A stretch of 64,000 nt of DNA from an uncultured bacterium (GCA_963735175.1 CAVTJX010000017.1:1793-65792), one strand, 5' to 3'. Positions 10,213 through 16,513 are shown, counted from the stretch's first letter. Notes: generated by a model not told the origin, from the sequence alone. A program made the numbers and translations.

Positions 10213-10738
10213 CTATCCGCAGTTGAATAGAACCGGTGGTGGTAACTGGACCAACGATAGAGTTCCGGGATCCGGCACAAGGCCCCGGCGCACCGGATTA
10301 TTCGCCATGTAATTTAAGCGTGTCGCCGCGGCATGTCCACCGGGGATGGCAACGGCGTCGTATCTTGCATTCCACAGCGGGCGTCCAGGATAATTCGGCA
10401 ATACCAGGTGTTTCGACGTTTCACGTTTGAACTCAGCCAGGAAGTCCGAAGACCGTACGGTCCGCTTCGTCCTGCAGCACCAGGGCATGCAGATGATCAG
10501 GCATCAGGACATAACCGAAGCACAAGAGCCGATAGCGCTGGCGATAGAACTCGAATCGGCGAAGGATGTACCCGCAAATCACGGTCCGAAACAAACCAAG
10601 TGCCACGGATTCGCGCAACCATAGTAATATACTGAAGGCTTCCGGGGCAATCCAACCGCTGGTGGCGTCGGCGCATGTTTCCCTCCGGATGCAGATTACG
10701 GCCGGGTTGCGCGGATTGGTGTTCGCAGTGGACGGCAA
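10213..10738 (-). CDS. IS200/IS605-family Y1 (HUH) transposase-like protein, REP-associated tyrosine transposase (RAYT)-like; +1 break ~10440-10480
   Basis: YRQRYRLLCFGYVLMPDHLHALV (HUH motif) in ORF 10433..10738 continues as SDFLAEFKRETSKHL...PLWNARYDAVAI...RLNYMANNPVRRGLV (catalytic-Tyr/NPV motif) in ORF 10213..10488. Confidence 0.7.
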
Positions 10739-10775: not shown

Positions 10776-12086
10776 TCAGTGATCGAGCTCGCCGCCGATC
10801 ATGTTGACGGAACCGAATGTGGGGACGATGTCGGCGACCATGTAGCCATTGATCTGTTCGGGGAGTGCCGCCACGAAATTGTAACACGGCGGACGCACGC
10901 GGCAGCGCCACGGGCGGTCGTTGGCGCCGTCGGTGGAATCGGCGTTCGGGTAGCTGACGACATAGAAACCGAGCTTCGCCGTTGCCGCCTTCGACGGCGA
11001 CATAGACCTCGCCCTCGGGGACGCGGATGCCGTGGCCGCTCATGATCGAGCTTGAAGTGATTCATCAAGCCCTCGATGTTGCCGTAGGTGTCCTTCTTGG
11101 CGGGCAACACGACGCGCTTGTCGCTGGAGGAGACGGGGCCGCCGGGAATGCGGGCCACGCACTGCTCGAAGAATGCGGCAGGACTGCTCCATCTCTTCCA
11201 GGCGAACAAGGTAGCGGTCCATCACGTCGCCGTTATGGCCGACGGGGACGCTCCAGTCGAGCTGGTCGTAAACAAGATAGGGGAAATCCTTGCGCACGTC
11301 GTAGGCGACGCCGGTGGAGCGCAGCAGCGGGCCGGTCCAGCCCCAGGCGATGGCGCGGTCGGCACTCATCTTGCCAATGCCTTGCGTGCGTTCGACGAAG
11401 ATGCGGTTGTTGGTGAGCAGGATGTCGCATTCGGCGAGGATTTCGCGGGTCTCCTTCACCGTCCACAGCACCTTGTCGAGCCAGCCTTCGCGCAGATCGA
11501 AGGGCATGCCGCCGACGCGGGTGGCGTTGGTCGTGACGCGCGCGCCGCAGTAATCTTCGAGCAGTTCGTAATAGTATTCGCGGGCCTTGATCAGATAGAG
11601 GAAGACCGTGAACGCGCCGAGTTCCATGGCCTGCGCGCCAACGCAAGTGAGGTGGTCGGCGATGCGCGAGACCTCGCAGAGCATAGTGCGGATGTACTGG
11701 CCGCGGGGCGGAATGGTGACGCCCAGCAGTTTTTCCACGGCCATGCAGTAGCCGACGTTGTTGATGACGGGTGAGACGTAATTCAAGCGGTCGGTATAGA
11801 TGATCGCCTGGTTCCACGTGCAGTCTTCGCTGTGTTTTTCGAAGGCGCGGTGCAGGTAGCCGATTTCGACTTCGGAATCCACGACGAGTTCACCCTGCAG
11901 CCGCGTGACGATACGGATAATGCCGTGCATCGCCGGATGCGAGGGGCCGATATTCAGCAGCATGTCCTGCGTCTGGAACTCGGGCTCTTCGGAGGGAATC
12001 GCCGTGCCGGTGTCGTAGGGCGCGATGACGGGCGGCGGTGAATCGGTGGTGCGAGTGGTATCGTTCATGGATGCCGGTTTCGTCAC
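10776..12086 (-). CDS. nuoD: NADH-quinone oxidoreductase subunit D, three +1 breaks (~11168, ~11047, ~10985)
   Basis: LLNIGPSHPAMHGIIRIV...LEEMEQSCRIL|EQCVARIPGGPV...NIEGLMNHFKL|IMSGHGIRVPEGEVYVAVEGGNGE|LGFYVVS...PTFGSVNMIGGELDH*. The GTG start overlaps the nuoC stop. Confidence 0.9.
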
Positions 12087-12567
12087 TGGTCCTTGGGGCC
12101 GATCAGGGGCTGGCGGCGCGTTCGCGGGTAGTCCTTGCGCAGCGGGTGGCCCTGGAATTCTTCGTAGAGCAGAATGCGCGGAGATCGGGGTGGCCGGTGA
12201 AGCGGATGCCCATCATGTCCCACGCTTCGCGCTCGAGCCAGTTGGCGATGGGCCAGAGCGGCGTGAGGCTGGGGACTTCAGGATGCAGCTCGTCGAAGGG
12301 CACCTTCACCCGCAACCGCGTGTGAGTCGTCAGGTTCATGAACTGGTAGACGATTTCGAAGCGGGGCTTGCGCGGCTGGTAATCGACCGCGCTCAAATCC
12401 ACAAGGAAGTTGTAGCCGAGGTCGTCCCGCAGCAGCTGGGCGATGTCGAAAATGCGCGCGCCGTCAACGATCAGGGTTTTGTCGCCGTGCTGGGCGTGCC
12501 AGTCGAACACCGCGCCGGGAAAGCGCTTGTCGATGGCGACGTGTTCGGGGAAGCGCTCGTCGCTCAC
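12083..12567 (-). CDS. nuoC: NADH-quinone oxidoreductase subunit C, -1 break near 12180
   Basis: VSDERFPEHVAIDKRFPGAVFDW...LTPLWPIANWLEREAWDMMGIRFTGHPDLR then RILLYEEFQGHPLRKDYP...*. GTGA overlaps at both ends. Confidence 0.85.
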
Positions 12568-13031
12568 TGCGTCACCTGCTTGGAATTCTGGATCAGATCC
12601 TGCAGCTTGAGCAGGCCGTCGAGGACGGCTTCGGGGCGTGGCGGGCAGCCGGCGATATAGATGTCGACGGGGATAATCAGGTCGATGCCCTGCACCGTGG
12701 AATAGTCGTCGTAGGGTCCACCACAACTTGCGCAGCCGCCGAAGGCGATCACCCATTTCGGATCGGCCATCTGTTCGTAGACGGTCTTCATCACCGGCGC
12801 GAGTTTCTGGCTGACGGTGCCCACCACCCAGAGCACGTCAGACTGACGCGGGCTGAAGCGGGGAAAAGCGGCGCCAAAGCGGTCGATATCGTAATGGCTG
12901 CAGGCGGTGGACATGAATTCCATGCCGCAGCAGGCCGTCACAAACGGATACTGGAAGAGCGAATATTTGCGTGCCCAGCCGAGAATCTTGTCGAACCGCG
13001 TGGTCATGGCGGTTCCCTGGAGGGCGGCCAT
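12564..13031 (-). CDS. nuoB: NADH-quinone oxidoreductase subunit B
   Basis: MAALQGTAMTTRFDKILGWARKYSLFQYPFVTACCGMEFM...GGCASCGGPY...AGCPPRPE. Internal ATG of ORF 12564..13172. Confidence 0.9.
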   Translation of the reverse strand: MAALQGTAMTTRFDKILGWARKYSLFQYPFVTACCGMEFMSTACSHYDIDRFGAAFPRFSPRQSDVLWVVGTVSQKLAPVMKTVYEQMADPKWVIAFGGCASCGGPYDDYSTVQGIDLIIPVDIYIAGCPPRPEAVLDGLLKLQDLIQNSKQVTQ

Positions 13032-13096
13032 GGGGTCCGTCAAGCGGCTATCGGTGATTGCTTTTGCCAAATCGAATACCTCGGAACAGAAAACCC

Positions 13097-13162
13097 GAAA
13101 TCCAAAATCCGAGTCAGAACAGAAATCCCACCCCCCCTTGCCCCCCCGCCAGCGGGGGGGAA
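13097..13162. repeat. Intergenic repeat, copy 1 (nuoA-nuoB spacer)
   Basis: GAAATCCAAAATCCGAGTCAGAACAGAA ... C7-TTG-C7-gccagc-G7-AA. It shares a 28-nt core (26/28) plus the C-run/G-run hairpin module with copy 2. Confidence 0.8.
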
Positions 13163-13168
13163 TGAGGA

Positions 13169-13540
13169 TCACTTCCAGTCGAGGACGCGCTTTTTAACGG
13201 CGTAGTAAAGGCCGACCATCAACACGGCGAGGAAGATCATCATGGAGACGAAGCCCACCATGCCAATGTCGGCGAAACCCACCGCCCACGGATAGAGAAA
13301 CGCCACTTCGATATCGAAGACGATGAAGAGGATGGCGACGAGATAGTACTTGATGGGAAACGGCTTGTTGGCATCCGCTTCCACTAAAATGCCTGTTTCA
13401 AACGGGCGGCCCTTGACCTCGCTGGGACGGCGCGGGCCGAACCAGATGGAGAGCGCCACAAACAAACCCGTCAGCGCGGCTGCCGCGGCGAAGAGCACGA
13501 GGAACTGAACCAGTGGAGAGTCGAAGGGCGACGGAGTCAT
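13169..13540 (-). CDS. nuoA: NADH-quinone oxidoreductase subunit A
   Basis: MTPSPFDSPLVQFLVLFAAAAA...KPFPIKYYLVAILFIVFDIEVAFLYPWAV. Internal ATG of ORF 13169..13618. Confidence 0.9.
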   Translation of the reverse strand: MTPSPFDSPLVQFLVLFAAAAALTGLFVALSIWFGPRRPSEVKGRPFETGILVEADANKPFPIKYYLVAILFIVFDIEVAFLYPWAVGFADIGMVGFVSMMIFLAVLMVGLYYAVKKRVLDWK

Positions 13541-13546
13541 AGGATT

Positions 13547-13667
13547 AGAAATCCAAAATTCGAAATCCAAAATTCGAGTCAGAACGGAAGAACCACGCTG
13601 TTGTATCCGCGCAGGCAAGAAACCAGAACTTCACCCCCCTTGTGTTCCCCCCATAAAATGGGGGGAA
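13547..13667. repeat. Intergenic repeat, copy 2 (upstream of nuoA); the 14-nt head is tandemly duplicated
   Basis: (A)GAAATCCAAAATTC GAAATCCAAAATTCGAGTCAGAACGGAA, 43-nt spacer, C6-TTG-tgtt-C6-ataaaat-G6-AA. Confidence 0.8.
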
Positions 13668-13688
13668 GCAGAAAAGACAGGCGCTGGG

Positions 13689-14375
13689 CTAATTGCGGTG
13701 GGTGATCTGCTCGAGTTTGTAGGCCAGCGGGGGAACGATGATGAGTTGAGCGATGATGCCGGGCAACGCCGGGGCTACGAGAATCATCAAATAATAGTTC
13801 ATGTCTTGAATACCCGCCATGGCCATCGAGACGAGCACATACACAATCCGGCCGAGAATCATCGCCACCAGCATGGCCGTGATCATGGCCGCAATCCGGC
13901 CCAGTCGCTCGGACAGGCCGGGCCAGACGGGCAGAAGCCGCAGCATGACCGAAGCCGTCATCGCATAGACGGCCAGTTCGGGCATGAGACGCATGACCTG
14001 TGCCGTGGTCGGCATCCCGGTAAAGCCGGAGGATAGGGCCGGAGTCAGAATGCCAACCATTCCCGCGTAGAATGGCGGCAGCAACAGACCCGCGAGAAAT
14101 ACGGGAAAGTGCATGGGCAATATCACCCGCGGCGCCAAACCGAAGGGGTGAATGAAGAACGGCAGCACAATCCCGAGGGCAACACAGACCCCTGCCGTGC
14201 CCAGCGCCTCCACTCCGTGAACCGGGGCGTAGAGTTCGCGGGTAGTTGGTGGATCCGTCTTCTGCGAGCGCGAGCGGGATTTGGTGCGATCGGCCGTAAC
14301 GGACTCCTTAACGCAGCAAGAAAATATGTGGAATGAAGTTAGGCCGTGAAAAACGGAGCAAGCCCGAGATGCCAA
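13689..14375 (-). CDS. ECF-transporter S-component-like membrane protein (start uncertain; probably near 14296 after an AAGGAG RBS)
   Basis: HPFGLAPRVILPMHFPVFLAGLLLPPFYAGMVGILTPALSSGFTGMP resembles the ECF S-component signature; about 5-6 TM segments. Confidence 0.55.
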   Translation of the reverse strand: MASRACSVFHGLTSFHIFSCCVKESVTADRTKSRSRSQKTDPPTTRELYAPVHGVEALGTAGVCVALGIVLPFFIHPFGLAPRVILPMHFPVFLAGLLLPPFYAGMVGILTPALSSGFTGMPTTAQVMRLMPELAVYAMTASVMLRLLPVWPGLSERLGRIAAMITAMLVAMILGRIVYVLVSMAMAGIQDMNYYLMILVAPALPGIIAQLIIVPPLAYKLEQITHRN

Positions 14376-14384
14376 CGATCTGCT

Positions 14385-14413
14385 AAACTACGGAAAATTT
14401 TTCACATTGTCAA
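14385..14413 (-). promoter_or_regulatory. Sigma70-like promoter: TTGACA-17-TAGTTT
   Basis: Minus strand reads cccTTGACAatgtgaaaaattttccgTAGTTTagc, upstream of the ECF S-component gene. Confidence 0.45.
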
Positions 14414-14496
14414 GGGATTCCAGACCCGCGAATCCAGCATTTTAAAGAGTAAAATTCAGTGTTTATTAAGTTAACCGACCGCGCCCCCCGATCCCG

Positions 14497-16513
14497 TCAC
14501 CGAGTCGGTCGGTGCCGGCGCCGGACTCCCCCTCGCTCAGGGACCTTTTTGGGTGGGGGCTTCAGGCTGAAAGTCGCCTGCCGTTTCTGCAATTGCCCAG
14601 CACTGCGGAACGCGTCCCGGACGAGCGCATAGTCGGACGCGGGCAGCACATCCTGTTTGATCTCCACGATCTGTTCCCAATTCCAGCTATGGGCGTTCAG
14701 GCGGTTGCTGATTTCAATGTGCACATAGGGATTGTCGATGATGAGCGGCGAAGGCAGAGCAGCCAACGCATACCCCTCGGGCAAGACGACCGTGACCAGG
14801 GTTTCACAGCGGGATCGTGGCGGCATCCGGAGGGGGTACTGAATCGTGGTCCACGTTGTGTCGAAAGCCAGCCGTCCGAAGTTAAAGGGCGTTTCGGGAA
14901 TTCCAACGATCAGCCGGGAGCTGTCGCGGCGGGCATATTCAGGCGCGGCGAAGCGCACCTGCACAGCCACCGGGATGGCGAGATCCGTGAGGTCAGAAAT
15001 CGAATAGGATGCCACCTGCGCCGTGGGCGCAAAGCGGGCCAGCGCGGCATGAATGAACTCGGCGCGGCGGTCGTCGCCAAAGCCGGCGAATGTCGCCCGC
15101 GTTTCCGCGGCCTTGTCGCCTTGCGGTTCACACAGAATGAATCCCGAAAGTTCCCCGTTGGCCGAAAGGGAAACACGGATTTCCGTGCGCGCGCCACGCG
15201 CAGCGGGATTGCCGGGCGAAATCTCCTGCACGAGGGGCGCGCCGCCGACGAGCAGACAGGCTTTGCCATAGGTCATCGCGAAAGGCAGCACCGTCGGCGG
15301 ATAATTCACGGCGGCGGGATCGATCCAGAGCGTATCTTCGCTCGTGGGAACCGCCAGGACAATACGGGAGAATTGTTCGAGCAGCGGCAGTTCAGAAGAA
15401 CGGCAGTAGGCGGCCCGGAACCAGCACCGGGATCGGGCCGAAGCCGTAACCCCGCAGCAGTGCGGTGAGCAACACGGCTTTGTCCTGCGGATCGGCGTAG
15501 CGTTCACGGACAATCCAGTCCGCCGTATGCAAGGCGGCATCGACACGGCCCGCGGTGCGATTCACCGGGCGCACATTCTGCTGCACCCAGCGCGTGGCGT
15601 TCATGAGCGCGGGAATCCCCTGCAGCGTGGGCGGTGTACCGGCCATGAAACTGTCCACGGCCGCTAGACTGGAATCTACTTTATCCCAGAAGAGATTGTT
15701 GAAGGCGGTGCCGAGCGCTTCCCAGTCGGGGCAGGTTGTCCAGACAAGACGGGGGAGAATGAACGCTGCATCGACGACCGGCGGAGACACATCCAAAGCC
15801 GGACAGTTGAGCCGCGTCCAGGTGTAAACGGAATGGTGATTGCTCGCCACAACGAGCGGTTTGAGATCGCTGTTCGTAAGTTCCCAGCGGAGCCGGAACG
15901 GCTCGACGACATCGACCGTGACGGTTTTCTCAAGAATCGGATCCGGACCGCCGAAGAGCGCGATCCCGCCGGGCGGGACTGCGGCGCGACCTCCGGCGAC
16001 GGGAAGCGGTTCCAAGCGATAGGCGAAATAGACAGCGTCTCCGGAATCCACAGCGGTGAAGCTGACCGTGAGTTGCCGGAACTGTGAATAGCCGGCGATC
16101 CATTTCACTTCCGGAGCGGGCGCATCGACGAAAGCGGTTGAGTCGAGCGTAATCCAACGGCCATCCGCTTTCTGAATCCGCGCGGAGTCGATGACCACGG
16201 CGTGAGTATTTTCCTGATAACCGATGACCTGCTCCCGATAGTGTTCCCTACCCTCCGCAGAGAGGATCCGGCAGCGGAATTCGCGGCGGGTGTGCATGCG
16301 TCCGCTGGCGTCGATGGTGAGATGTTCGCGGTCGAATTCGATCACAGCCGAGGGCGACGGCTGGTCAGCTGGCCGCGAGACGGCGCCGTTCAGGCTGTCC
16401 AGAGGTTCCGCAGCCGCTCGCATTGACAGTGTCAACGACCATAACAGAAGCAGTCCGGCCAGGGAGCGGCGGCCATGATGCATGAAACCGTGTTGGAGAA
16501 TCGGGAGCGGCAT
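14497..16513 (-). CDS. DUF3857 / transglutaminase-like / DUF3858-type secreted protein, +1 break near 15393-15400
   Basis: ORF 15392..16513 (signal peptide, then AVIEFDREHLTID...) continues in ORF 14497..15546 (ELPLLEQFSRIVLAVPTSEDTLWIDPAAVNYP...). Architecture recalled from family knowledge, not searched. Confidence 0.5.

What the first reader, a model, noticed from the sequence alone, without database searches (positions are those of the whole stretch)
13085..13670. Duplicated composite intergenic element upstream of nuoA and of nuoB, with a C-run/G-run hairpin and G-quadruplex potential
Two intergenic regions 450 nt apart share a module.

The first part is a 28-nt core, GAAATCCAAAAT[C/T]CGAGTCAGAAC[A/G]GAA. 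It lies at 13097..13124 and 13562..13589; in copy 2 its first 14 nt are tandemly duplicated.

The second part is C6-7-TTG, then C6-7, a 6-7-nt loop and G6-7-AA (13131..13162 and 13635..13667).

On the transcribed (minus) strand this reads C7-gctggc-G7-caa-G7 in copy 1. That is a perfect 7-bp hairpin immediately followed by a second G-run. The sequence G7-caa-G7 satisfies G3N1G3N3G3N1G3, so hairpin and G-quadruplex folds would compete.

Copy 1 starts 7 nt after the nuoA stop. Copy 2 lies in the nuoA leader.

I recognise no family for this element, and it is unrelated in sequence to the RAYT-flanking repeats. It could be a MITE/REP-like element, a processing or attenuation signal, or a translational coupling device for nuoA/nuoB.
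Basis: seen in the sequence. Interest (0 to 1): 0.6.

Follow-up and report, generated by a model that had tools for sequence, protein, structure and literature searches.

The report
Two genome-wide intergenic repeats beside nuoA/nuoB
The "duplicated nuo element" is real. It is one copy each of two repeat families found between genes across this uncultured bacterium's genome: a stem-loop placed just after stop codons, and a run of 7-base repeats of a known but unexplained kind, so it is not a device specific to the respiratory genes.

Summary

**The 28-nt core.** On the transcribed strand it reads TTCTGACTCG followed by (GRATTTY) units. It belongs to about 85 such heptamer arrays in the 3.3-Mb genome, most often with 4 units.
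- The pyrimidine-rich 3' end of an array points at the nearest gene boundary, whether start or stop. This holds for all heptamer families in the genome (Fisher p = 2.5e-8).
- The same rule is published for Xanthomonas GGGAATC repeats.
- Arrays of this unit type form the inverted arms around an S23p (23S-rRNA-IVS protein) gene in this genome.
- All 25 S23p genes tested in this phylum lie between such mirrored arms.
- The nuo arrays are solo arms.

**The C-run/G-run module.** It belongs to a separate family of about 49 copies, found in 14 of 41 related genomes.
- The "second G-run" pairs with a pyrimidine tract 5' of the C-run. This gives a two-tier stem whose base reaches the stop codon; the commonest linker is exactly 8 nt.
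- This explains the second G-run better than a G-quadruplex does.
- The two nuo hairpins belong to different subfamilies, so the composite was not duplicated locally.

Canonical sigma-70 promoters and U-tract terminators exist elsewhere in the genome; neither module matches them. The function of both modules is inferred only, because no RNA-seq was available.

The parts
13634..13680 (-). Two-tier stem-loop, subfamily B, 23 nt after the stop (13689-13691) of the upstream ECF S-component gene. On the minus strand: pyrimidine tract CUGUCUUUUCUGCUU (13666-13680), C6 (13660-13665), loop AUUUUAU (13653-13659), G6 (13647-13652), AACACAA (13640-13646), G6 (13634-13639).
   Evidence: Sequence. Family listing. 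MFE and centroid pair the second G-run with the CUUUU tract, z = -2.0.
13547..13584 (-). Heptamer array copy 2 (solo pyrimidine-rich arm): head TTCTGACTCG (13575-13584) plus AATTTTG GATTTCG AATTTTG GATTTCT (13547-13574). Its tail ends 6 nt before the nuoA ATG (13538-13540), and there is no Shine-Dalgarno sequence.
   Evidence: PWM score 58.0, among the best of about 85.
13169..13540 (-). nuoA (123 aa)
   Evidence: Pfam PF00507, E = 1.3e-33.
13128..13168 (-). Two-tier stem-loop, subfamily A, starting directly after the nuoA stop. On the minus strand: linker UCCUCAUU (13161-13168), C7 (13154-13160), loop GCUGGC (13148-13153), G7 (13141-13147), CAA (13138-13140), G7 (13131-13137), UGG (13128-13130).
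   Evidence: The MFE pairs CCUC of the linker with the second G-run. The 8-nt stop-to-C-run spacing is shared by 7 copies.
13082..13119 (-). Heptamer array copy 1 (solo pyrimidine-rich arm): head TTCTGACTCG (13110-13119) plus GATTTTG GATTTCG GGTTTTC (13089-13109) plus degenerate TGTTCCG. It runs into the GAGG Shine-Dalgarno (13079-13082) and the TTG start of nuoB (13068-13070).
   Evidence: The 23-mer is identical to copies on contigs C1 and C12.
12564..13070 (-). nuoB. The start is inferred at TTG 13070 from alignment of the N-terminus (…DPxAALQG) with relatives.
   Evidence: Pfam PF01058, E = 8.3e-26. Relatives L001 and L002.
13689..14213 (-). ECF-transporter S-component gene upstream of nuoA; the same neighbour is seen in relatives.
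   Evidence: Pfam PF12822, E = 1.3e-8. Synteny in L001 and L005.

Best explanation
Each of the two nuo spacers holds one member of two independent, genome-wide families of intergenic repeats.

**(1) A REP-like RNA stem-loop built from homopolymer runs.** A pyrimidine tract plus C6-7 on the 5' side pairs with G6-7, a short spacer and a second G5-7 on the 3' side. This gives a two-tier stem whose base lies 0-3 nt from the stop codon of the preceding gene. I infer that it works on the transcript: as a 3' barrier to exonucleases that stabilises the upstream cistron, and possibly as an obstacle to the terminating ribosome. It is not a canonical terminator.

**(2) A polar array of 7-nt repeats, TTCTGAYTCG-(GRATTTY)3-5.** It belongs to the widespread and still unexplained class of heptamer repeats at gene junctions. 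Here it is the pyrimidine-rich 3' arm type of the hairpin cassettes that enclose S23p (23S-rRNA-IVS protein, Avd-like) genes. The nuo copies are solo arms. Their 'head' points into the spacer and their 'tail' abuts the next gene (nuoA ATG +6 nt; nuoB Shine-Dalgarno). I infer that they are transcribed as part of the nuo mRNA, where they give an unstructured U-rich stretch just 5' of the initiation region.

The nuoA and nuoB copies resemble each other because both families populate many gene junctions, not because of a local duplication or a nuo-specific control device.

**Shown:** copy numbers, geometry, predicted pairing, the S23p arms, and distribution in relatives. **Inferred:** transcription through the elements, RNA-level function, and cassette origin of the solo arms.
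For: **Dispersal**
- The core with up to 5 mismatches has 53 copies. A PWM scan gives about 85 against about 5 in the null.
- There are 49 strict hairpin copies.
- The commonest array length is 4 units, in 34 of 85 arrays, and 51 of 85 carry the CTGAYTCG head.

**Geometry of the arrays**
- Arrays that are purine-rich on the top strand have the nearest gene boundary on their left in 34 cases against 12 on the right.
- Pyrimidine-rich arrays have it on the right in 44 cases against 10 on the left (Fisher p = 2.5e-8).
- Median distance is about 20 nt on the near side and about 110 nt on the far side. Starts and stops are about equally frequent on the near side.
- This is the rule published for GGGAATC repeats (PMC4692102).

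**S23p cassettes**
- Both PF05635 genes of this genome lie between mirrored heptamer arms. The C9 cassette uses the GAAATTC/GGATTTY unit with a CTGATTCG head, and its arms fold into a stem of about 31 bp.
- All 23 further S23p loci tested in relatives have mirrored arms, with z from 4.9 to 29 and mostly 7-nt periodicity.
- Seven head-to-head pairs of arrays are listed; the five folded give stems of -28 to -48 kcal/mol.
- Heptamer repeats in the arm of the Coxiella S23p IVS, and its cleavage by RNase III, are published (PMC4990558).

**Hairpin**
- The second G-run pairs with the 5' flank in 40 of 49 copies.
- Positions -8 to -5 are 80-86% pyrimidine.
- The sense RNA is more stable than the antisense RNA in 47 of 49 copies (-24.9 vs -20.4 kcal/mol), because of G·U pairs. 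Relatives show the same.
- A long ORF ends within 120 nt of the C-run side in 31 copies, with a spike of 7 copies at exactly 8 nt.
- The architecture is present in 14 of 41 related genomes, with 0 control hits and genome-specific loops.

**Not a promoter or terminator**
- Many tRNA genes have TTGACA-N17-TATAAT promoters and hairpin-plus-T-run terminators.
- Neither nuo module passes those scans.
Against: - Read-through, 3' ends and processing are therefore all inferred.
- The orientation bias of the hairpin between co-directional genes is only 20:10. Nine copies lie within 30 nt of a stop on the opposite strand, so a DNA-level or purely selfish role is not excluded.
- The GGATTTC family shows some preference for starts (55 starts vs 30 stops) and precedes 8 tRNA genes that lack a canonical promoter. 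This would suit a promoter or leader function.
- The S23p cassettes of G002 and G011 use other units than those genomes' CTGACTCG-GGATTTC solo arrays, so 'solo arm = cassette remnant' is not proven.
- Stems made only of C/G homopolymers give no covariation.
Confidence: 0.6

Rival explanations
1. Terminator-promoter punctuation. The C/G hairpin ends the upstream transcript. The array is a portable promoter, with the head CTGACT/TTGACT as -35 and the third heptamer RATTTY, 16 nt downstream, as a weak -10. It restarts transcription for nuoA, nuoB and about 50 other genes, including tRNAs.
For: - Eight tRNA genes have an array 4-24 nt upstream in place of the TTGACA-N17-TATAAT seen at other tRNAs.
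- Divergent gene pairs exist whose whole spacer is two back-to-back arrays.
- Where the ATG is more than 20 nt from the tail a Shine-Dalgarno sequence is present; where it is less than 12 nt there is none.
- The tail faces a start in 55 of 85 arrays.
Against: - 30 of 85 arrays, and about half of all heptamer arrays, point at stop codons or tRNA 3' ends.
- The putative -10 position is no more TATAAT-like than the other units.
- For two tRNA-Ser genes the predicted start would fall inside the tRNA.
- The arrays fail the sigma-70 scan and the hairpins lack a U-tract.
- In G002 two arrays lie about 30 nt upstream of a canonical TTGACT-N17-TATATT promoter.
Confidence: 0.15
2. The arrays are binding sites on the mRNA for a single-strand-binding factor (ribosomal protein S1, a Csp, or a ring-shaped oligomer). 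This factor would set translation initiation of the downstream gene, as proposed for TAACTGA repeats.
For: - Position 3-25 nt before start codons in 28 arrays.
- Few Shine-Dalgarno sequences where the array abuts the ATG.
- Close analogy with PMC4679880.
Against: - The same arrays occur in antisense directly after stop codons and next to tRNA genes.
- The strand-symmetric geometry is not expected for an RNA-binding site.
- Only about 2 of 7 orthologous loci keep an array between genera.
Confidence: 0.12
3. A hairpin/G-quadruplex switch in the nuo mRNA (G7-CAA-G7 against C7:G7) tunes nuoA/nuoB expression.
For: Copy 1 fits G3N1G3N3G3N1G3. The second G-run is conserved across the family. G4-forming heptamer repeats are known in bacteria (PMC4692102).
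Against: - Copy 2, subfamilies B and C, and most relatives have G6 or G5 runs that cannot supply four G3 tracts.
- The second G-run has a conserved pyrimidine partner.
- The element is not nuo-specific.
Confidence: 0.05
4. Both modules are functionally neutral selfish or slippage-generated repeats, tolerated only where they do no harm.
For: - Patchy distribution of the array type: G000, G002, G011 and G039 only.
- Poor orthologous conservation, with spacers replaced wholesale.
- Unit number varies between near-duplicate loci, for example 4 vs 3 units at purC.
- Loop sequences are uniform within a genome and differ between genomes.
Against: - The strict geometric rule and the fixed 8-nt register need either selection or a targeting mechanism.
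- The hairpin architecture is kept across 11 genera.
Confidence: 0.08

Closest known systems
GGGAATC / GGGGA(C/T)T heptamer repeats of Xanthomonas and Nostoc (Rehm et al. 2015, PMC4692102)
   Same: - Tandem 7-nt units, with a preference for four.
- Intergenic, mostly between co-directional ORFs.
- The purine-rich strand is non-coding upstream of ORFs and coding just after stops.
- No functional theme among neighbouring genes.
- Unit number varies between relatives.
- The unit is similar: GATTCCC there, GATTTCG here.
   Different: - The unit here is G-poor, so G4 formation is unlikely.
- 51 of 85 arrays carry a conserved non-repeat 'head', TTCTGAYTCG, at the inner end.
- No transcript data here.
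TAACTGA direct repeats of marine Beggiatoaceae, cyanobacteria and some Bacteroidetes (MacGregor 2015, PMC4679880); cyanobacterial STRR repeats (own knowledge)
   Same: 2-6 heptamers within a few nt of start codons, often without a Shine-Dalgarno sequence. Patchy phylogenetic distribution. Function unknown.
   Different: There 147 sets point at starts and 12 at stops. Here the ratio is 55:30 for this family and about 1:1 for all heptamer families.
S23p-encoding intervening sequences (IVS) of 23S rRNA (Coxiella, Leptospira, Salmonella; PMC4990558)
   Same: An S23p four-helix-bundle ORF enclosed by inverted arms that contain tandem heptamers and form a stem of about 28-31 bp. The published stem is cut by RNase III.
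   Different: Here the cassettes lie between protein and tRNA genes, not in 23S rRNA. The nuo arrays are solo arms without a partner or an ORF. Cleavage was not tested.
E. coli REP/BIME elements (own knowledge: Newbury et al. 1987 on mRNA stabilisation; Liang, Rudd & Deutscher 2015 on REPs within 15 nt of a stop codon lowering upstream gene expression through ribosome stalling)
   Same: Short extragenic palindromes in tens of copies. They often lie in operon spacers just after stop codons, are uniform within a genome, and sometimes occur in inverted doublets.
   Different: - No cognate RAYT: the 7-8 RAYTs of this genome each flank a different REP family.
- No GTAG-type 5' motif.
- The stem is made of C/G homopolymers, with a second tier of G·U/G-C pairs.

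Membership tests
Heptamer repeat arrays at gene junctions (STRR / TAACTGA / GGGNATC class) | Tandem 7-nt unit, 2-6 or more copies, with an excess of four | tested here: met
   Units after the head: 4 units in 34 of 85 arrays and 3 units in 18. There are 146 arrays of at least 3 units across several unit families.
Heptamer repeat arrays at gene junctions (STRR / TAACTGA / GGGNATC class) | Intergenic, within about 50 nt of an ORF boundary, obeying the strand rule (pyrimidine-rich on the sense strand before starts, purine-rich on the sense strand after stops) | tested here: met
   34:12 and 10:44 contingency table, Fisher p = 2.5e-8. Median distance on the near side is about 20 nt.
Heptamer repeat arrays at gene junctions (STRR / TAACTGA / GGGNATC class) | Repeats are transcribed | not testable with these tools
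S23p / IVS-type hairpin cassette | Two inverted arms forming a stem of at least 20 bp | tested here: not met
   The two nuo arrays are direct repeats, 465 nt apart. No inverted partner exists in the window.
S23p / IVS-type hairpin cassette | The arms enclose a PF05635 ORF, and the arm unit matches the element | tested here: inconclusive
   Not at nuo. The same unit and head form the arms of the C9 S23p cassette of this genome. All 25 S23p loci tested have mirrored arms.
S23p / IVS-type hairpin cassette | Excision of the stem by RNase III | not testable with these tools
   Needs an in-vitro cleavage assay or RNA end mapping.
REP / REPIN | Short extragenic imperfect palindrome in many copies, uniform within a genome | tested here: met
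   49 copies. Loop and spacer are genome-specific in 14 of 41 relatives.
REP / REPIN | A cognate RAYT gene flanked by the same REP | tested here: not met
   The Y1-transposase loci are each flanked by other repeat families, none by C/G hairpins.
Intrinsic (Rho-independent) terminator | GC-rich stem followed at once by a U-tract | tested here: not met
   The stem is followed by UGGGAUUUCUG or UGAAGUUCUGG. The terminator scan does not call it, while canonical terminators follow tRNA genes.
Sigma-70 promoter | TTGACA-16/18-TATAAT with A at position 2 and T at position 6 | tested here: not met
   No minus-strand site upstream of nuoA or nuoB. Head CTGACT plus RATTTY reaches only a weak match.
MITE | Terminal inverted repeats and a target-site duplication; filled versus empty sites | tested here: not met
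   No conserved sequence outside the head and tail. Orthologous spacers are replaced, not interrupted.
Canonical G-quadruplex motif (four G3+ tracts, loops 1-7) | Four G3 tracts kept across the family | tested here: not met
   Copy 1 fits. Copy 2 and subfamilies B and C (G6 or G5 runs), and most relatives, do not.

The most novel reading that the evidence does not exclude
The heptamer arrays at gene junctions, including the two at nuoA and nuoB, are arms or leftover half-sites of a selfish hairpin cassette that carries an S23p (Avd-like four-helix-bundle) gene. The cassette would be the intergenic counterpart of the 23S-rRNA intervening sequence. It settles flush against gene boundaries. Its mirrored arms would form RNase III stems that cut polycistronic RNAs. 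Solo arms and the stop-codon-abutting C/G stem-loops would then shape cistron stability and initiation. If so, the long-unexplained excess of 7-nt repeats between bacterial genes would have a mobile-element origin.
Probability: 0.3. Interest if true: 0.7.

Novelty: new variant of a known kind. Interest (0 to 1): 0.4.

Why it matters
The result removes a false lead: there is no evidence for a dedicated nuoA/nuoB regulatory device.

It also adds three things:
- **A well-populated example of the unexplained junction heptamer repeats.** It comes from a little-studied uncultured lineage; the best NuoB matches are unnamed or doubtfully named MAGs, and earlier notes report type IX secretion genes. 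The geometric rule here is clean and strand-symmetric.
- **A consistent link between those repeats and S23p cassettes.** All 25 cassettes tested have mirrored arms.
- **A new REP-like stem-loop family with no cognate RAYT.** Its second G-run is explained by a G·U-rich lower stem that reaches the stop codon.

If the cassette origin holds, it would give a testable explanation for a repeat class that has been described several times without a mechanism.

Tried and rejected
- **Rfam scan of 12000-15000.** The only hit was a sub-threshold Antizyme_FSE match (20 bits against a gathering score of 40, E = 0.54), taken as chance.
- **First gene-context statistics.** A naive ORF caller was uninformative, because 31% of random sites have a 'start' within 40 nt. 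I replaced it with a codon-usage caller and model-free stop-codon histograms.
- **Promoter model (head as -35, third unit as -10).** Rejected as the main reading because of the stop-facing arrays, the lack of position-specific -10 bias, and two tRNA-Ser cases.
- **Bacteroidetes-type -33/-7 promoter.** Rejected because the organism shows canonical TTGACA/TATAAT promoters.
- **RAYT-mobilised REP for the C/G hairpin.** No RAYT is flanked by it.
- **MITE with target-site duplication.** Comparison of orthologous spacers showed replacement, not insertion.
- **Conserved regulon.** Only about 2 of 7 orthologous junctions share an array between G000 and G002.
- **'TCTG' as a general inner-end motif of all heptamer families.** The enrichment (35% vs 10%) comes mainly from the GGATTTC family.
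- **Stop-codon read-through at nuoA.** The in-frame extension has no coding character (read).
- **Citation for Liang et al. 2015.** It was not found in the held library, so it is cited as my own knowledge.

Full report
**1. Observation**

The window is C17:1793-65792 of a 3.30-Mb, 19-contig, 60% G+C assembly. The genes here are on the minus strand:
- an ECF S-component gene at 13689-14213;
- nuoA at 13169-13540;
- nuoB at 12564-13070 (Pfam).

The 28-nt core is at 13097-13124 and 13562-13589. None is expected by chance. The C-run/G-run modules are also present.

On the transcribed strand, the nuoA stop is followed by this order:
- the linker UCCUCAUU;
- C7-GCUGGC-G7-CAA-G7-UGG;
- about 10 nt;
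- TTCTGACTCG-GATTTTG-GATTTCG-GGTTTTC;
- the Shine-Dalgarno GAGG;
- the TTG start of nuoB.

Upstream of nuoA the order is the same, but three things differ. The hairpin is a different subfamily (C6-AUUUUAU-G6-AACACAA-G6). It lies about 50 nt from the array. The four-unit array ends 6 nt before the ATG.

**2. The core is one of about 85 heptamer arrays**
- Allowing up to 5 mismatches, the 23-mer TTCTGACTCGGATTTTGGATTTC has 53 copies in the genome.
- An iterated PWM finds about 85 copies above a score at which the reversed-sequence null gives 5.
- The consensus is TTCTGAYTCG followed by (RATTTYG) units. The commonest number is four units, in 34 of 85 arrays, and 51 of 85 have the head.
- The neighbouring genes have no common theme. 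They include nuoA, nuoB, purC, sucC, tdk, queF, trx, tag, a MATE pump and glycosyltransferases.
- Eight tRNA genes have an array 4-24 nt upstream.
- The exact head-plus-two-units pattern is frequent only in G000 (50 hits), one sister genus (G002 with 23, G011 with 29) and, with another head, G039 (11). About 30 other relatives have none.
- Only about 2 of 7 orthologous junctions share an array between G000 and G002. Where they differ, the whole spacer is different and no target-site duplication is seen.

**3. Not the organism's promoter or terminator**

Many tRNA genes carry textbook TTGACA-N17-TATAAT promoters 10-18 nt upstream, and hairpin-plus-T-run terminators downstream. The consensus scan finds no minus-strand promoter before nuoA or nuoB, and it does not call the C/G hairpins terminators.

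**4. Geometry of the arrays**

With a codon-usage gene caller plus ARAGORN:
- The array tail faces a gene start in 55 cases, 28 of them within 25 nt.
- It faces a stop codon or a tRNA 3' end in 30 cases, about 14 of them within 12 nt. The genes concerned are real ones.

Taking all 123 heptamer arrays found with the stricter adjacent-unit rule, of any unit family, 108 lie outside genes:
- Arrays that are purine-rich on the top strand have the nearer boundary on the left in 34 cases against 12.
- Pyrimidine-rich arrays have it on the right in 44 cases against 10 (Fisher p = 2.5e-8).
- Starts and stops are about equally common on the near side.

This is the rule Rehm et al. reported for GGGAATC repeats: non-coding strand upstream of ORFs, coding strand after stops, preference for four units, transcribed, function unknown (PMC4692102). 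It also resembles the TAACTGA repeats (PMC4679880).

**5. Link to S23p cassettes**

Earlier notes of this scan suggested that heptamer arms bracket S23p genes. I tested this here.
- G000 has two PF05635 genes.
  - The one at C9:29792-30073 lies between a (GAAATTC)4 arm that abuts the stop of the preceding gene and a CTGATTCG-(GGATTTY)4 arm that abuts tRNA-Ser. The arms fold into a stem of about 31 bp.
  - The other, on C11, lies between (GAAGAAC)4 and (CTTCGTT)4 arms.
  - These two units are the two most abundant heptamer families of the genome.
- S23p genes occur in 30 of 41 related genomes.
- All 23 further loci examined have significant mirrored arms, with z from 4.9 to 29, most with 7-nt periodicity. 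The purine-rich arm is 5' and the pyrimidine-rich arm is 3', and the latter often ends at the next ATG.
- Seven head-to-head array pairs are listed in G000, three of them between tRNA genes. The five that were folded give stems of -28 to -48 kcal/mol. G002 has the same layout at tRNA-Ser.
- Tandem heptamers in the arm of the Coxiella S23p IVS, and RNase III cleavage there, are published (PMC4990558).

A hairpin with a purine-rich 5' arm and a pyrimidine-rich 3' arm that fills a spacer from boundary to boundary reproduces the geometric rule for either gene orientation. The nuo arrays would be solo 3' arms. That solo arms derive from cassettes is an inference. The S23p cassettes of G002 and G011 use other units than those genomes' CTGACTCG-type solo arrays.

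**6. The hairpin family**

A strict pattern finds 49 copies, in three subfamilies. The same architecture occurs in 14 of 41 relatives, with 0 hits for the reversed control. Loop and spacer sequences are uniform within a genome and different between genomes. Some copies form inverted doublets or arrays with a period of about 108 nt.

Structure:
- In 40 of 49 copies the minimum-free-energy fold pairs the second G-run with the pyrimidine-rich 5' flank. Positions -8 to -5 are 80-86% pyrimidine.
- The sense RNA is more stable than the antisense RNA in 47 of 49 copies, -24.9 against -20.4 kcal/mol, because of G·U pairs.
- Both nuo copies fold this way.

Position relative to genes:
- A long ORF ends within 120 nt of the C-run side in 31 copies, with a spike of 7 at exactly 8 nt.
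- 21 copies have an opposite-strand ORF ending near the G-run side, with a spike at 13-16 nt.
- The element is therefore proximal to 3' ends, and between co-directional genes it prefers the sense orientation about 2:1 (20:10).

No RAYT is flanked by this hairpin. The Y1 transposases of the genome each flank a different REP family. By analogy with E. coli REPs (own knowledge), a stem whose base reaches the stop codon should protect the upstream cistron from 3' exonucleases and may hinder the terminating ribosome.

A three-tetrad G4 is possible only for G7 copies such as the one after nuoA. It is not conserved in the family.

**7. The composite**

Only 7 of 49 hairpins are followed on the same strand by an array within 90 nt, at spacings of 4 to 51 nt. 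Arrays equally often follow other REP families.

At the nuoA-nuoB junction, relatives show:
- a C/G-type hairpin only (L001);
- a different hairpin plus two arrays flush with the nuoB TTG (L002, which is G002);
- short spacers with neither module (L003-L005).

The junction is thus a recurrent landing place, not the seat of a conserved device.

**8. Verdict**

Both modules are new variants of known kinds. Their mechanisms are inferred and await transcript data.

**Caveats**
- The assembly is 83% complete and has many frame breaks, so homopolymer lengths are uncertain.
- The gene models are my own approximations.
- The E. coli REP literature is cited from memory.

Noticed in passing
G000 C9:29704-30170 (outside the window): An S23p (PF05635) gene with a frame break lies between a DedA-like gene and tRNA-Ser(gga). 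It is enclosed by mirrored heptamer arms that fold into a stem of about 31 bp. A second cassette at C11:53300-53800 has (GAAGAAC)4 / (CTTCGTT)4 arms.
   Followed up: yes
G000, eight loci including window 10433-10738: Seven to eight Y1-transposase (RAYT-like) genes are each flanked by their own inverted-repeat family, for example CCGCCGAGGCAGG…CCTGCCCGGAATC, CTCTCCAGAGGCCGCC, GCCGCGCGGGGTC and AAACCCGGCCGGAA. These REPs are the hairpins often seen just upstream of array heads.
   Followed up: partly
window 11040-12086 (minus strand): The nuoD ORF ends in an out-of-frame tail (…AVRGPHSRRPRLLQRQARR…), and nuoC is split between frames near 12100-12250. This agrees with the frame breaks noted earlier for this window.
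   Followed up: no
G001 C5:228272-239334: About a dozen C6-TTTCAA-G6-N6-G6 hairpins are clustered in about 11 kb, several in tandem with a period of about 108 nt and some as inverted pairs about 116 nt apart. This is a much denser arrangement than in G000.
   Followed up: no
G039, loci L099-L106: The GGATTTC arrays with head TTGTTTCG are embedded in a conserved intergenic element of about 110 nt: …CAAGTATCAGTCTCATTAG-(GTTTTGA/ATTTTAA…)-arrays-GTTCCGGCTCGTCCGGGTTAGG. Many copies sit at contig ends, so the repeat breaks that assembly.
   Followed up: partly
G000 C11:25894 vs C12:6171; C8:222549 vs C10:7553: Near-duplicate loci (purC, sucC) lie on different contigs at about 90-95% protein identity, with arrays that differ in unit number (4 vs 3). 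This is either a real duplication or two strains merged in the bin.
   Followed up: no
G000 C9:28622-30260: Four tRNA-Ser genes lie in 1.6 kb. They are separated by head-to-head array pairs, so each tRNA is bracketed by arms whose tails point at it. G002 (C4:16742-16882) has the same layout.
   Followed up: partly
G000 C16:79397 and C18:63478: ARAGORN calls two tRNA-SeC(tca) genes. The C18 copy is preceded by a four-unit heptamer array.
   Followed up: no
L001 positions 2880-2935 (CAYJKM010000029.1): In this relative the nuoA-nuoB spacer has the head motif CTGACTCGG without heptamers, directly 5' of a C5-GCTCGC-G6-ACAACA-G6 hairpin. That hairpin ends 2 nt before the nuoB ATG. The order of the modules is the reverse of that in the window.
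   Followed up: no
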